A stretch of 64,000 nucleotides of DNA from Sphaerodactylus townsendi (taxonomy: Eukaryota), in contig NC_059433.1 of NCBI RefSeq assembly GCF_021028975.2, forward strand, positions 2,480,001 through 2,544,000. The letters run 5' to 3'. This document shows, one piece after another, positions 2,579 to 55,827 of the stretch (its first letter is position 1; every line of letters begins with the position of its first letter). A program made the translations under genes and the position numbers. The notes beneath the pieces were generated by a model. That model was not told the DNA's origin. It searched no databases and saw nothing but the letters and a program-made list of their open reading frames with translations.

Positions 2579-2862
2579 TGTCAGGACTGCAACTCCCAAC
2601 ATGCACTGCTTCCTGCCTTTTCCCAAACAGTGCAGGAAAACAAACTGAGAAGCTACATTCCACCAGAGCTTCAGAGCCAATGGGAGACCAGGAGCTGGTA
2701 GGAGGGGAAGAGTTGATTGGTTGCTGTCTGTCTTTGTAAATAGTTTAAATACTGGAACTGATGACAAGAATCCTCAGTTCCATTACTGTGTAGTTAGGGC
2801 AACATAAATCAATAAAGTTCCTCTTCTAAAGTTAGCTTTGTCTGAGTGTGTTCAGCCTTACA
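2579..2862 (+). mobile_element. 5' LTR of Gypsy element A
   Basis: TGTCA...TTACA ends, CCAAT/ATTGG boxes, TTTAAAT at 2744, AATAAA at 2811; followed by a self-complementary PBS and gag/pol remnants. Confidence 0.85.
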
Positions 2863-3850
2863 TTGTGCTGGAACTCACTCTTATTGTTCCACCATGTACC
2901 CAGACCCCTATAGGCATGGCTGGGTCAGGAGAACAAACCTATGCTCACTATCCCTGACTCTCCCCAGCAGGACAAGGGACCCTGGTGAAGCGGCCTACAC
3001 TCGAATGAGCGGGTGAGACACCCCCCTGCCATTCATCCTAACCAAATCCCAAGGACTGGGGAGTGGATCGAACTGCGAGGCGGACAAGCAGCGATGCGCT
3101 TATGAGGCACTGCGACTTCAGTCAGAGGAGGTTACTCGGGAGAGGGACCGGCTACAATCTGACTTTTCAGACCTTCAGCAGCAAGTGGCATTCCTATTGG
3201 CTGAATGAGAAAGGGAGAAAACGAGAGGGGCCCTCCGAATCCACTCGCACCCACCGTCACCACTTGGACCTGTGCCTGCACTATGGAGAAGGCAGCCACC
3301 TCATCGCGCCTTGCCCTGGTAGTCACATCCCAGCAGCTGCTTCTGGACCCAAGGGTCCGCAGCACCCAGGAACCCCCACAAAAGTTTCCCAACAGTCCCG
3401 CCCCACCACAGCCAGAGCCACCCTTAACCTGGCTGCCCAAGCTGGGACTGGACTACAATTTACCGGCGGGAAATGACAACGACCTGGCTTAAGGAGCGCC
3501 AATAACCAGGTCGTCCCTGCAGGCGCCAAGGGTGAGTGCTTCTCCACCATGCCCATAGTCATAGTGGTTACACCCTCCTGGGGTCTCAGACCCAGACCCA
3601 TGCCAAGGCCCTCATTGACTTGGGTTGCTTGAGGTGCCTGATCCATCCTGATTTGCTGGCGGCATTAGGACTTGGATTGTTAAACTGAAACGGCCACTCT
3701 GGTTCGAGCAGATGGATGGTACTGTACTGGGGGGGGGCCTTTCCACCCACAAGTCAGAGCCTGTGGTCGTATCATTTGCAGGGCACAGTGAGCAACAGTA
3801 GTTTGTAGTGGCCAAGTTGGGCAGCTACCCCCTATTGCTACGCATGCCCT
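2863..3850 (+). pseudogene. Gypsy element A: PBS, internally deleted gag, gag/pol frameshift site, aspartic protease remnant
   Basis: gag ends PAGNDNDLA* at 3492; protease motif AKALIDLGC(=DSG)...FEQMDG at about 3600-3850; multiple stops and frameshifts. Confidence 0.8.
3468..3526 (+). promoter_or_regulatory. -1 ribosomal frameshift cassette (degenerate slippery site plus H-type pseudoknot)
   Basis: G GGA AAT in gag phase at 3468-3474; stem1 acgacctgg 3479-3487 / ccaggtcgt 3506-3514; stem2 gcgcc 3496-3500 / ggcgc 3522-3526. Confidence 0.75.
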
Positions 3851-3867
3851 AGTGCTACGCATGCCCT

Positions 3868-5810
3868 GAGACAACACTTCTTGAACCAAGGCTATATGAA
3901 ATTGCTCATCCTTAGAATAGATCAGCACATCATCCAAATAAACATCATCCAAATAAACACCCACTCCTTTAAATAATAAATCATCCAGGATGCCATTTAT
4001 TAAACTTTGAAAAACGGATGGGGCTCCTTGTAATCCAAAGGGCATGACAAGATATTCAAACTGCCCATAGCGAGTATTAAAAGCAGTCAAATGTTCATGA
4101 CCCTCAGCCATTCGCACCCTATAGTAAGCCTCACGTAAATCCAACTTTGTGAAGATGCGACCAGAGCCGAGGTTTGCAAGTAAGTCCTTGATTAAGGGGA
4201 TGGGGTATTTGTTTGAGGCAGAAAGTGCGTTCAAACCTCTGAAATCGGTGCAGAGGCGTAAAGAGCCATCTTTCTTCTTTACAAACAGAACTGGAGCTGC
4301 AAAACCACTGCGCGCTTTCCGGTTAAATCCACGCGCCAAATTCTTATCCAAAAAAGCTCTAACTCAGCATCCTCAGCCGGGCTCATGGGATAAAGCCGTC
4401 CCTTTGGTAACTTAGCTCCTGGAACCAGTTCAATTTCAGTCAGTGGCCCAGTGGGGTGGCAAGGTATTACACTCAGTTTCCTCAAACACTCACCACAAGC
4501 CCCTATATGGCACAGGAATAGCAGGGTCGATGGGAGGCGGGGACAATGCGCAGGCAAGTCCGTTGGATGGGCGCAGCAAATGGCTCGGGAGGTAAGGGCT
4601 CATATGATCCCCGCAATGTGGATCAGTAAAAGTCAAAACATGCTGGGACCACTTTACAGATGGAACATGTTCCATAAGCCAAGAGAGTCCTAGAATCACA
4701 GGATATTGAGAAATAGGGGCAATAATGAAGCTGTGACGTTCCCAATGACCCTCACAGCTAACCAGAATCCTGGGCATGCGAGAAGTGATGGGACCACCTC
4801 CCATGGGACTACTGTCCATTTGGTCAAACCGAATAGTCTCCTTCAGACCAACCAGCTGCAGCGGTAGTGCCTCAACCAACCGAGGATGAATTAAACAATG
4901 AGAACAGCTGGTATCCACCAGGGCCTGAACCAGCAACTTCGGGCAGCCGGGACCATTAGTAAGCACAAGGGGTAGAATTCCGAAGCCTGGAGCATCCGCC
5001 AAGCCTCAGCTTCTGAGGAATCAGCTACTTCGGACGGGCGGACGGCCACTGATACATTCCCAGCCAGAGGTGCAGTCACCCAACTTGCGCTGCCAAAATC
5101 CAAGGGCTGAGAGTCTCAATAATCCAGGCCCCAAAGGCGGTGCACAGTAACAGAGCCATCTAACGGGGCAGTCAGGAACAGATTGGTGGAGTCCGAAAGG
5201 CCAGTTGGAGTAGGGTCTCCTCCAGAAGCGGTTGCTTCCCCTGATAACATCCGAGGCCCCTCGGCTTGGTCAGAGGCAAAATCCAAAGTCCCAGTTAATT
5301 CTGCAGGAATGGGGCGCCCAGCCTCTGCTCTTGCAGACACTTCTCCTTGCGGGGTTTCAAGCGAAGTCATGCTGATAGATTTAGTTCATTAAAAACGATG
5401 TAAAAATAAAGGGTGAAATTCCAGCAATGCACAGCAGCATGGAATTCGACCTATGGGGAGTACTGGCTTAATGTCAGAATCCCAAAAACACACGCAAACT
5501 CTTGTTGAAGAACAGTAGTTTTTAATGGTGTTGGATCTTCCCTGGTCAAAGCCAGTACTGAGAATTGCCCGCGCAAAACCCTACAGTTAAAACAACTTGC
5601 ACTTCCCAGGCTGGGAAAGCGCGCCTAAAAGTTACCATAAGAATGATAACATGAGATGGTCAGGCAGTGACCTTGGGCACCACCTGGTACTGCATAACAT
5701 CCTACAGAAACAGTGGAAAGACAGTTAGAAATGCATTTAACCCATTCCTCCACCCCCTGTGCATTTAGAAAGTAGCAAAAGCAAAACCCATAATAACAGG
5801 TCTCCTGACA
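3868..5810 (-). mobile_element. Gypsy element B (5' LTR 5472-5810, short gag remnant, protease, partial RT), nested in element A and 3'-truncated
   Basis: ORF 4490-5002 ALVDTSCSHC (protease); ORF 3680-4351 [37 protein letters not shown] with TGTCA/TGACA ends. Confidence 0.9.
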
Positions 5811-54299: not shown

Positions 54300-54325
54300 C
54301 CAGCCCCACCCAGCCAGCACACACC

Positions 54326-54847
54326 AGCTGGTTCTACACAGGTAACTGGTTTATGGAACCCATGTCAGTTGCCTGTGCCGCTGTTTGCACAGCAGCTGCA
54401 GAGACCAGCCAGGATTGCTGGGATCTCGGCAGCAGGAGAACGGAGTGTTTTTATGCAAACTGCACAGCTGAGAATCCCCCACCAGAGAATCCTCCACCCC
54501 AAAATCCACCCCTTTGAGAATCTCCCCACCTACCTGCATGGTATGGTGGCTGTTTATTAGAGAATCTACTGTAATGGTAGCTGCCTGGGAGTCCACCATA
54601 CTGGTGGATGAAAAGGGGTGGGAATTGAATGCTTCCTGTTTGCTGCAGTTCACAGAGACAAACAGGAAGTATTTGAAACCTGGGTTAAAGGAAAAAAGTT
54701 GCTAATTTAGTGGCTTTCATTTAACCCGGGTTCTGGCAAATAGTACACATTAGAAGTGTTTGGGGGGTGAGCTCTGTGGGAATGCCGACCTCCCAGTGTT
54801 TTTGAAAAGGGCCTCAACCCATTCTGTTGGCCTGTGCAGAATCAGCC
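54326..54847. mobile_element. Harbinger-like MITE
   Basis: TIRs gctggttctacacagg / cctgtgcagaatcagc. Confidence 0.55.
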
Positions 54848-54966
54848 GCCAATCCCTTTTTTAAAAAATGCACAATCTACTGTAGTTGCTCAAAAGATGA
54901 TGAAATGTTATACAAAAAACAAATAACTACTACTGGACATAGCAGTAATTTATAAGTGGATGTAAT

Positions 54967-55827
54967 TGTCAGGACCATGCCTGTCAGTATCTTGATGTCT
55001 TGCTGTGTGTGATTTGCAATTGTTTTCTTGTTTCCCTCTTCCCTTCCCAGCAATCTCCTGTTAGCAATCTCCTGGTGCCAGCCCATCTTCAAAGAGGTGT
55101 GAAAGGTTCCCAGGTTCTTTGTAGTAGAAACTGAAATGGACATTTGGTGTGGGGCGAAACAGGGGGGGGGATTAAAAGATATAAGTCCTGGATCTGAGCA
55201 CTCTAGCTCAGATCCTGCTTTACATTGTTACTCTTCACATCACCTGGAATAAACTGCTTTTGGACTTTCCTACGGTCTCTGTTATTTCCACGTTCAAGAG
55301 TCTGACATTAAGCAGGATCTCCCAGTTTGGCTCGCACTCAAATCCATGGCTGGCAAGGATGGAGCAACAGGCGGGTCCCCGGCTGGCGAACCTGATGAGG
55401 GAACGGGGTGAGTTCCAGACAAGGACAAGATGCCTCGCAACCCAGACTTAGGAGATGAGGAGAAGGATGCTCCCGTCCCCGACTGACACGATCCTCACTT
55501 GGGTGCTGCACGAAGCGCCAGCAGTGAGGAGAGCATGGGAGCATGGGATCACCCTATTCTTGGGACCCCTCTTGGGACCCAAGGTGGCTGGGCAGCGTGA
55601 GTCCACTTGGCTCATGCAACCCATGGACCAGGACATTTACTCGGAGTGGGACCCAGCGGCACAAAGCGAGTGGTCATGGGTCCAGGCAGGGGCGTGGGCC
55701 CCTGAGCGAGGCGTGGTGTCCTGGTGGTGGGAGCAAGATGAGATGCGGCAGGAGATACACTTCCTACGGTGCAACATGGAACTCCTCTTAGCCTGCCCCG
55801 AGGCAGCAGAGTGGGATCGCCAGGATC
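54967..55827 (+). mobile_element. Gypsy element D: 5' LTR (54967-55307), PBS, gag N-terminus; truncated
   Basis: TGTCAG...CTGACA, TATAA at 55180, AATAAA at 55248, self-complementary PBS at 55310-55320. Confidence 0.85.

What the first reader, a model, noticed from the sequence alone, without database searches (positions are those of the whole stretch)
2579..55320. Four unrelated Gypsy LTRs all encode their own 11-nt self-primer (tRNA-independent priming), with covarying sequences
Seen in sequence: after each 5' LTR comes TT and then 11 nt complementary to a site 30-33 nt downstream of that LTR's TATA-like box. A(+): R agttccattac 2776-2786 vs PBS gtgctggaact 2865-2875 (9 Watson-Crick pairs, 1 GU, 1 mismatch). 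B(-): R agtactggctt 5559-5549 vs PBS aagccagtact 5469-5459 (11/11). C(-): R agaactcgcat 9576-9566 vs PBS atgtgagttct 9483-9473 (10 plus 1 GU). D(+): R agatcctgctt 55210-55220 vs PBS aagcaggatct 55310-55320 (11/11). The primers differ but the grammar is fixed: YTC|AG start, LTR-CA-TT-PBS, PBS ending CT|C, and no TGG tRNA PBS. Established: S. pombe Tf1 primes reverse transcription with the first 11 nt of its own RNA, and this is proposed for the Tf1/sushi group. Inference: these lizard families self-prime, and the variable core may act as a family-specific key.
Basis: partly seen in the sequence, partly recalled or inferred. Interest (0 to 1): 0.7.

Follow-up and report, generated by a model that had tools for sequence, protein, structure and literature searches.

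The report
Self-priming chromovirus retrotransposons in a lizard
Four broken jumping genes in this lizard DNA carry, right after their terminal repeat, 11 bases that pair with 11 bases inside the repeat, as do most relatives checked, so they likely start copying themselves with their own RNA, a mechanism already shown in yeast and already proposed for this vertebrate group.

Summary
The four R/PBS pairings are real at the stated coordinates. LTR ends are fixed independently by solo LTRs with 5-bp TSDs. 67 of 75 other copies pair at 10 or more of 11 positions, with two-sided changes. In a motif-free sample, 25 of 28 chromodomain elements with paired LTRs pair likewise, about 29 nt below a TATA-like box. 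Two claims fail. The families are not unrelated: they are sibling chromodomain Gypsy families, with RT 65-74% identical as DNA. The AG...CT grammar is not fixed: 24 of those 25 start AT. The family-key idea is unsupported. Self-priming is established for Tf1 and described for the Tf1/sushi group in vertebrates (PMC6317226, passages), so this is a new member of a known kind. Extra: LTR copies that end at the PBS or fold back from it into U3 (10 of 18 B hits; rare in A and D) look like fossils of primer-tailed cDNA. Transcription starts could not be mapped. The scan noted similar signatures earlier on other DNA.

The parts
2579..2862 (+). Element A 5' LTR (284 bp, TGTCAGG...CCTTACA)
   Evidence: copy alignments start at 2579 and LTR-only copies end at 2862; 5 exact TSDs
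2744..2750 (+). A TATA-like word at -32 (inferred promoter)
2776..2786 (+). A predicted self-primer (start of R)
2811..2816 (+). A AATAAA polyadenylation-type signal
   Evidence: sequence
2863..2875 (+). A TT spacer (2863-2864) and PBS (2865-2875)
2876..3853 (+). A internal piece 1: leader, degenerate gag, start of protease
   Evidence: collinear with A copies L121, L122, L125; tblastn
5811..6982 (+). A internal piece 2: degenerate protease-RT region, continues piece 1 across the B fragment; truncated
5472..5810 (-). Element B 5' LTR (339 bp)
   Evidence: 7 exact TSDs in LTR-only copies
5549..5559 (-). B predicted self-primer
5459..5471 (-). B TT spacer (5471-5470) and PBS (5469-5459)
3867..5458 (-). 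B internal fragment: leader, start of gag region, protease and partial RT; lies inverted inside A; truncated
   Evidence: Pfam RVT_1 and protease
9486..9718 (-). Element C 5' LTR, lacking about 50 nt at its 5' end
   Evidence: other copies begin TGTCAGG about 50 nt upstream of the aligned start
9566..9576 (-). C predicted self-primer
9473..9485 (-). C TT spacer (9485-9484) and PBS (9483-9473)
6979..9472 (-). C internal fragment: degenerate gag (DUF4939, Retrotrans_gag, CCHC) and protease; truncated
54967..55307 (+). Element D 5' LTR (341 bp)
   Evidence: RNA reads also lose similarity at 54967 and 55307
55180..55186 (+). D TATA box at -30 (inferred promoter)
55210..55220 (+). D predicted self-primer
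55308..55320 (+). D TT spacer (55308-55309) and PBS (55310-55320)
55321..55829 (+). D leader and start of internal region; similarity to other copies ends at 55829

Best explanation
These are four truncated copies of sibling Gypsy families whose relatives carry an integrase chromodomain, and each has an 11-nt site after the LTR that pairs with an 11-nt site in the LTR, which likely serves as a Tf1-type self-primer. Shown: the pairing, its conservation and two-sided change across copies, the LTR ends, the chromodomain in family copies, the constant spacing below a TATA-like word. Inferred by analogy to Tf1: transcription starts at the A of the 11-mer; the capped 5' end folds onto the PBS, helped by a short stem between the bases just after the primer and the LTR's last four bases; RNase H cuts after base 11; the freed 3' end primes minus-strand DNA through TT-U5-R. 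Inferred: plus-strand synthesis then copies the retained primer into a PBS tail, so the PBS is rewritten from R and the two sequences drift together; this explains the covariation without any family key, and explains LTR copies that end at the PBS or fold back from it into U3.
For: Coordinates and pairs. 67 of 75 other LTR+leader copies pair at >=10 of 11 (A 14/16, B 8/8, C 19/22, D 26/29); two-sided changes in B (L066, L068, L077) and D (L014, L015, L021). Pattern fixing only the frame: 921 genome hits against 147 for the reversed control; of 90 examined, 44 pair in the free 9-nt core (shuffled: about 0.4%), and only 5 of the 46 unpaired hits resemble a paired LTR. One copy from each of 18 clusters: 156 of 162 core pairs against a mean of 90 and a maximum of 119 when partners are swapped (these copies were selected on pairing). 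Motif-free sample: 25 of 28 chromodomain elements with paired LTRs pair at >=10; TATA-like word at -29 in 23 of 25. The two LTR-paired elements without a chromodomain match have no such complement (best 8.5 and 8.0), and L296 has a TGG-type PBS. Duplex predicted in 48 of 48 folds; inner 4-bp pairing in 38 of 48 against 10 of 198 control windows. PBS-ended and fold-back copies. Literature passages: PMC7175516, PMC6317226, PMC4600332, bioRxiv 2022.12.06.519325, PMC11042837.
Against: No transcription start was mapped, and cleavage and priming were not observed. The third duplex of the Tf1 'pretzel' was not detected (20 nt after the PBS against R-U5: z < -2 in 1 of 48), and a 16-nt energy test of the inner stem was also weak (1 of 48). 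Fold-backs are uneven: 4 of 18 in B, 1 of 54 in D, none into U3 among 58 in A (read by eye); any inverted repeat can give fold-backs, and in L284 and L288 the folded piece matches the family U3 rather than the copy's own upstream sequence as it stands. The host tRNA set tested was incomplete (24 genes, 11 anticodon types). No tree with named Tf1 or sushi-ichi sequences was built.
Confidence: 0.87

Rival explanations
1. Self-derived primer, but from the R copy at the RNA's 3' end or from a second co-packaged RNA (trans), not from the 5' end in cis.
For: R is present at both RNA ends. Some copies carry a shared variant on one side only (D position 11: R only in L004, L010, L012; PBS only in L017, L023; L078 has R and PBS of different B subtypes), which fits heteroduplexes or mixed templates.
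Against: Pairing stops sharply at the A about 29-32 nt below the TATA-like word and the next outer pair is C.C in 32 of 44, as expected if the RNA begins there. The Tf1 precedent uses the 5' end (PMC7175516, passage).
Confidence: 0.07
2. One reading: the variable core is a family-specific key that blocks cross-priming between families.
For: Cross-family duplexes among A-D keep only 5-9 WC pairs of 11; cores vary at all 9 free positions.
Against: The same core occurs in separate LTR clusters and several cores occur within one 20-member cluster. Single mismatches are common in copies. An intramolecular fold needs no key, and templated copying of primer into PBS predicts the covariation on its own.
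Confidence: 0.08
3. A host tRNA, tRNA half or other small RNA primes, and the R/PBS duplex has another role (packaging, RNA protection).
For: The tRNA set tested was incomplete; no primer was observed.
Against: No PBS starts with TGG; best match anywhere in 24 host tRNA-like genes is 7-8 WC pairs against 9-11 for R. 19 distinct PBS sequences among 44 copies track their own R, which fixed host RNAs would not do.
Confidence: 0.04
4. Chance or a by-product of small local inversions.
For: About 3% of random positions reach A's window score somewhere within 340 nt; 46 of 90 pattern hits do not pair.
Against: Same offset (85-101 nt before the LTR end), same length and same spacer in dozens of independent insertions and many clusters; 41 of the 46 unpaired hits show no similarity to these LTRs.
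Confidence: 0.01

Closest known systems
Tf1/sushi group of Ty3/gypsy chromoviruses, vertebrate V-clade (Sushi-ichi, Amn-ichi/ni/san; group and names as given in PMC6317226 and bioRxiv 2022.12.06.519325, passages)
   Same: Vertebrate host; gag (DUF4939, Ty3_capsid, CCHC) - PR - RT - RH - IN - SH3 - chromodomain in family copies; 5-bp TSD; LTRs start TGTCAGG; no tRNA PBS; PBS complementary to the LTR. Self-primers are stated to have been described in this group from yeast and vertebrates.
   Different: These lizard families and primer sequences were not found in the papers searched. Butler et al. 2001, the paper on the vertebrate elements, is not held, so I could not see which hosts and details it covers. 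Placement by a tree with named references was not done.
Tf1/Tf2 of Schizosaccharomyces pombe (also Tj1, Tosmo1-3, Tcry1)
   Same: 11-nt primer complementary to the PBS (PMC7175516); a stem next to the PBS; cDNA with a single-stranded PBS tail, about 50% of Tf1 cDNA (PMC11042837), would explain the PBS-ended copies here.
   Different: Cleavage and priming are shown for Tf1, only inferred here. The Tf1 PBS appears to begin right after the LTR's CA (my reading of the insertion logo in PMC11042837); here two T's intervene. The third 'pretzel' duplex was not detected here. Fission-yeast Gag lacks CCHC; these have it. U3 fold-back copies were not found in my term search of PMC11042837 or.
tRNA-primed Gypsy elements in the same genome (L296, L299; likely Gmr1-type, label from recall)
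   Same: Ty3/gypsy integrase domain, TG...CA LTR and 5-bp TSD (L296).
   Different: TGG-starting PBS, no chromodomain match, no LTR complement: an internal negative control.

Membership tests
Tf1/sushi group (vertebrate chromoviruses) | Ty3/gypsy polyprotein order gag-PR-RT-RH-IN | tested here: met
   Pfam on related full-length copies L263, L267, L268; domain maps of A, B, D family copies; best PDB match Ty3 Gag-Pol. Window copies are truncated.
Tf1/sushi group (vertebrate chromoviruses) | Chromodomain at the integrase C-terminus | tested here: met
   PF00385 above cut-off before the 3' LTR in A copy L122, B copy L129, D copy L137. For C only in sibling elements (L277, L263, L267, L268; L277 RT 74% DNA identity to C copy L131). 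Not found in the fragments tested from L121, L262, L266, L278.
Tf1/sushi group (vertebrate chromoviruses) | PBS complementary to the element's own LTR, not to a tRNA 3' end | tested here: met
   tRNA comparison limited to 24 genes
Tf1/sushi group (vertebrate chromoviruses) | RT-IN phylogeny inside the Tf1/sushi clade | not tested
   No named Tf1 or sushi-ichi sequence was obtained. Most of the best 120 homologues of L263 RT-RH that carry a name are from vertebrates, and many have PF00385.
Tf1/sushi group (vertebrate chromoviruses) | Sushi LTR end motifs TGTYANR...CNTNACA (PMC3601003 Table 3) | tested here: inconclusive
   5' motif met in A, B, D and in other C copies; 3' motif exact in A and C, one mismatch in B and D. 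The rGmr1 motif is nearly the same, so this does not discriminate.
Tf1/sushi group (vertebrate chromoviruses) | Gag-Pol expressed mostly by -1 frameshift outside fission yeasts | tested here: inconclusive
   pol lies in the -1 phase to gag in L263 and L268, not in L267 (ORF coordinates); a recalled slippery motif gave no consistent site.
Tf1-type self-priming | Primer is the first 11 nt of the transcript | tested here: inconclusive
   Indirect only: TATA-like word at -29 in 23 of 25, at -33 to -27 in 32 of 44 paired against 9 of 46 unpaired hits. Starts were not mapped.
Tf1-type self-priming | [quoted passage not shown] | not testable with these tools
   Duplex length is 11 and position 12 never forms a WC pair in 44 copies; cleavage needs biochemistry.
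Tf1-type self-priming | Three-duplex 'pretzel' RNA structure | tested here: inconclusive
   Central duplex 48 of 48; inner 4-bp pairing 38 of 48 against 10 of 198; downstream duplex not detected by a crude test, 1 of 48.
Tf1-type self-priming | cDNA that keeps a PBS copy at its 3' end | tested here: inconclusive
   10 of 18 B hits leave the leader at or inside the PBS, 4 of them folding into U3; 4 of 44 paired against 0 of 46 unpaired pattern hits fold back. Consistent, but tRNA-primed elements also leave PBS tails.
tRNA-primed LTR elements | PBS starting TGG and complementary to a tRNA 3' end | tested here: not met

The most novel reading that the evidence does not exclude
This genome records vertebrate self-priming in action. 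The retained, capped 11-nt primer is copied into the PBS every cycle, so primer and PBS drift as one self-templated pair. The near-constant C after the PBS (24 of 25; not complementary to the genomic -1 base) is a copy of, or partner for, the RNA cap. LTR copies that end at the PBS or snap back into U3 are integrase-independent insertions of primer-tailed cDNA, a fossil read-out of a step shown so far only in yeast.
Probability: 0.3. Interest if true: 0.5.

Novelty: new member of a known kind. Interest (0 to 1): 0.25.

Why it matters
The mechanism is not new: it is shown for Tf1 and has been proposed for vertebrate Tf1/sushi elements since 2001. The value is confirmatory. Dozens of covarying primer/PBS pairs, a constant spacing below a TATA-like word, and PBS-ended or fold-back copies give genome-scale support for a vertebrate mechanism that, in the passages I read, is described as predicted. 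They also predict exact transcription starts, and give a simple signature for telling chromoviruses from tRNA-primed Gypsy elements in reptile repeat annotation.

Tried and rejected
3' LTRs in the window: none. RNA evidence: no RNA holder listed; three raw RNA runs added by species label were laid on the D LTR and gave reads on both strands across the whole LTR, few in the leader, and no place where many molecules begin, which looks like read-through of solo LTRs and maps no start. The second lay was mis-aimed at the integrase region of L311, not its LTR, and is uninformative. Full-length partners: among 20 extended copies of A-D and 20 extended pattern hits most were truncated or interrupted; 8 of the latter had an LTR pair. 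Third pretzel duplex not found. Slippery-site search gave nothing consistent. tRNA search returned only 11 anticodon types, some probably tRNA-like repeats. Whole-LTR alignments between A-D give only z 1.0-3.7, which is why they look unrelated; RT shows otherwise. Direction of change (R first, PBS later) could not be shown: D position 11 has 3 R-only, 2 PBS-only and 1 two-sided copy. Primary papers (Butler 2001, Levin 1995, Lin and Levin 1997 and 1998, Atwood-Moore 2006, Esnault and Levin 2015) are not held and were not read; no supplements were opened.
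Full report
Observation. All eight 11-mers are at the stated coordinates and pair as stated: A 9 WC + 1 GU + 1 mismatch, B 11/11, C 10 + 1 GU, D 11/11. 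Each PBS follows LTR-CA-TT and is followed by C. No element has its 3' LTR in the window, so the LTR ends had to be fixed from other copies in the genome. Alignments start at 2579 (A), 5810 (B), 54967 (D) and 9718 (C), and LTR-only copies stop at 2862, 5472 and 9486. Exact 5-bp TSDs flank 5 A, 7 B and 2 C LTR-only copies. C lacks about 50 nt of its 5' end. At random window positions a complement as good as A's window copy occurs somewhere within 340 nt in 88 of 2887 trials, a perfect one in 12.

Anatomy. All four are dead fragments. A runs 2579-3853 and resumes at 5811-6982; the B fragment (5810-3867, inverted) sits inside it; C (9718-6979, inverted) abuts A's broken end; similarity of D to other copies ends at 55829.

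Conservation in copies. Of 120 loci fetched (the best 30 per family), 4 are the window copies, 75 are other LTR+leader copies, and the rest are LTR-only. At least 10 of 11 positions pair in 14 of 16 A, 8 of 8 B, 19 of 22 C and 26 of 29 D copies: 67 of 75 (counted by hand from the output). Two-sided changes occur in B (3 copies) and D (L014, L015, L021).

Genome-wide test 1. A pattern fixing only the frame (TCAG, a poly(A)-type word, LTR end, TT, final CT) hit 921 places against 147 for its reversed control. I examined the first 90 distinct places. The free 9-nt core is bimodal: 44 pair (>=7 WC and >=8 paired), where shuffled cores reach 7 WC in about 0.4%; 46 do not, and only 5 of those 46 resemble a paired LTR. 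The 44 fall into 18 clusters with 19 distinct PBS sequences. One member per cluster gives 156 of 162 own pairs against a swapped mean of 90 and maximum of 119 (selected on pairing, so descriptive).

Genome-wide test 2, without a motif. I took 40 of 150 integrase zinc-finger hits, in rank order and skipping those on small contigs. 30 had an LTR pair, 28 of them with a chromodomain match. 25 of 28 pair at >=10 positions, 2 nt after the LTR and 85-101 nt from the LTR end. Most belong to two or three young related families, so they are not 25 independent cases. 24 of the 25 start AT, not AG, and the upstream triplet varies; C follows the PBS in 24 of 25. A TATA-like word starts at -29 in 23 of 25. 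The two LTR-paired elements without a chromodomain match lack the complement, and L296 has a TGG-type PBS.

Relatedness. RT regions of A, B, C and D family copies are 65-74% identical as DNA and about 60-80% as protein, while their LTRs barely align. Chromodomains above the Pfam cut-off lie just before the 3' LTR in A (L122), B (L129) and D (L137) copies and in siblings of C. The best homologues are largely vertebrate chromodomain Gypsy proteins, the closest from a gecko at 87%. So these are sibling families of one clade, not four unrelated cases.

tRNA rival. No PBS begins TGG. Against 24 host tRNA-like genes of 11 anticodon types the best match anywhere is 7-8 WC pairs. The set is incomplete; the stronger argument is that 19 PBS variants follow their own R.

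RNA structure. Folding from the predicted +1, the duplex forms in 48 of 48 sequences. The LTR's last four bases can pair with a site 0-8 nt after the primer in 38 of 48, against 10 of 198 control windows. The outer flanking pair is C.C in 32 of 44 and position 12 never forms a WC pair. A duplex between the sequence after the PBS and R-U5, the third element of the Tf1 'pretzel', was not detected (1 of 48).

Copies ending at the PBS. Of 18 exact B hits for LTR end + TT + first PBS bases, 8 continue into the leader, 4 end inside the PBS, 2 end at its last base and 4 continue as the reverse complement of U3 (read by eye). In D 1 of 54 folds back; in A none of 58 folds into U3. Among pattern hits, 4 of 44 paired and 0 of 46 unpaired fold back. 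About half of Tf1 cDNA keeps a single-stranded PBS tail that drives integrase-independent insertion (PMC11042837, passages). Such a tail would here snap back onto R. This fits the model but does not prove it: tRNA-primed elements also leave PBS tails, inverted repeats invite template switching, and in L284 and L288 the folded piece matches the family U3 better than the copy's own upstream DNA. An earlier scan note (e1-9913754, another genome) uses the same fold-back argument; it arrived in the same batch as and is not independent support. The 3'-end/trans rival was prompted by e1-7857552.

Mechanism. Shown: pairing, covariation, LTR limits, chromodomain clade, spacing. Inferred from Tf1: start at +1, fold, RNase H cut after base 11, minus-strand priming, and copying of the retained primer into the PBS, which makes covariation automatic. 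A family key is not needed and is contradicted by shared cores between clusters and mixed cores within one, although cross-family duplexes are weak (5-9 WC).

Literature. Passages read: PMC7175516 (first 11 bases, cut between 11 and 12); PMC6317226 (self-primers described in the Tf1/sushi group from yeast and vertebrates; V-clade names); PMC4600332 (implicated from fungi to vertebrates); bioRxiv 2022.12.06.519325 (common feature of the group, three-duplex pretzel); PMC3601003 (LTR end motifs); PMC2864245 (a plant Tcn1 element with neither kind of PBS); PMC11042837. Other papers were seen only as search listings. The primary papers were seen only as reference entries. Searches listed no paper on lizard self-primers or fold-back copies; the library lacks most subscription journals, so this is weak. 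No supplements were read.

Verdict. Real, well supported, and an expected property of vertebrate Tf1/sushi-type chromoviruses: a new member of a known kind, interest 0.25. The transcription start, the cleavage and formal clade placement remain untested.

Noticed in passing
G000:C5:18603092, C10:16221451, C15:898362, C874:793998 (L284, L286, L288, L290); C10:14449308; L143, L194, L195, L204: LTR-TT-PBS followed directly by 7 to about 48 nt of reverse-complemented U3 and then unrelated sequence: fold-back junctions at the PBS.
   Followed up: partly
L266:246-7635: 7.4-kb element with identical D-like LTRs, a 5-bp TSD and a perfect primer/PBS pair, but no match to the Gypsy RT query and no chromodomain hit; it holds a different RVT_1 piece. 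Possibly a young non-autonomous or cargo-carrying element.
   Followed up: partly
L302-L335: Young chromodomain elements of about 6.2 kb, several with 100% identical LTRs and TSDs, whose primers start AT; the clade was active recently in this genome.
   Followed up: partly
window 2579-9718: Nested cluster: B inverted inside A's pol, C joined tail to tail with A. Many family copies lie within a few Mb of the ends of large contigs.
   Followed up: no
L282 (= L078), G000:C2:170726765: LTR ending at the PBS whose R and PBS match different B subtypes, and whose 5' flank ends in AA like the polypurine-tract end; could be a mixed-template cDNA or a single mutation.
   Followed up: partly
window 19672-19841, 20854-21033, 21300-21460, 52284-52394, 53127-53297, 53367-53501, 62974-63144, 63898-64000: Family of short palindromic repeats of about 160 bp with inverted arms, likely MITEs.
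   Followed up: no
window 14202-17976 (-), 24880-27778 (+), 43052-45379 (-), 47218-47748 (+): LINE-type pieces (RVT_1, endonuclease, L1 ORF1-like domain).
   Followed up: no
L248, L249, L251, L252, L257, L259, L260: Scattered low-scoring tRNA-Ala(GGC)-like sequences, probably tRNA-derived repeats rather than genes.
   Followed up: no
L149, L187, L219: Three near-identical pattern hits from another repeat family with the frame motif but no R/PBS pairing.
   Followed up: no
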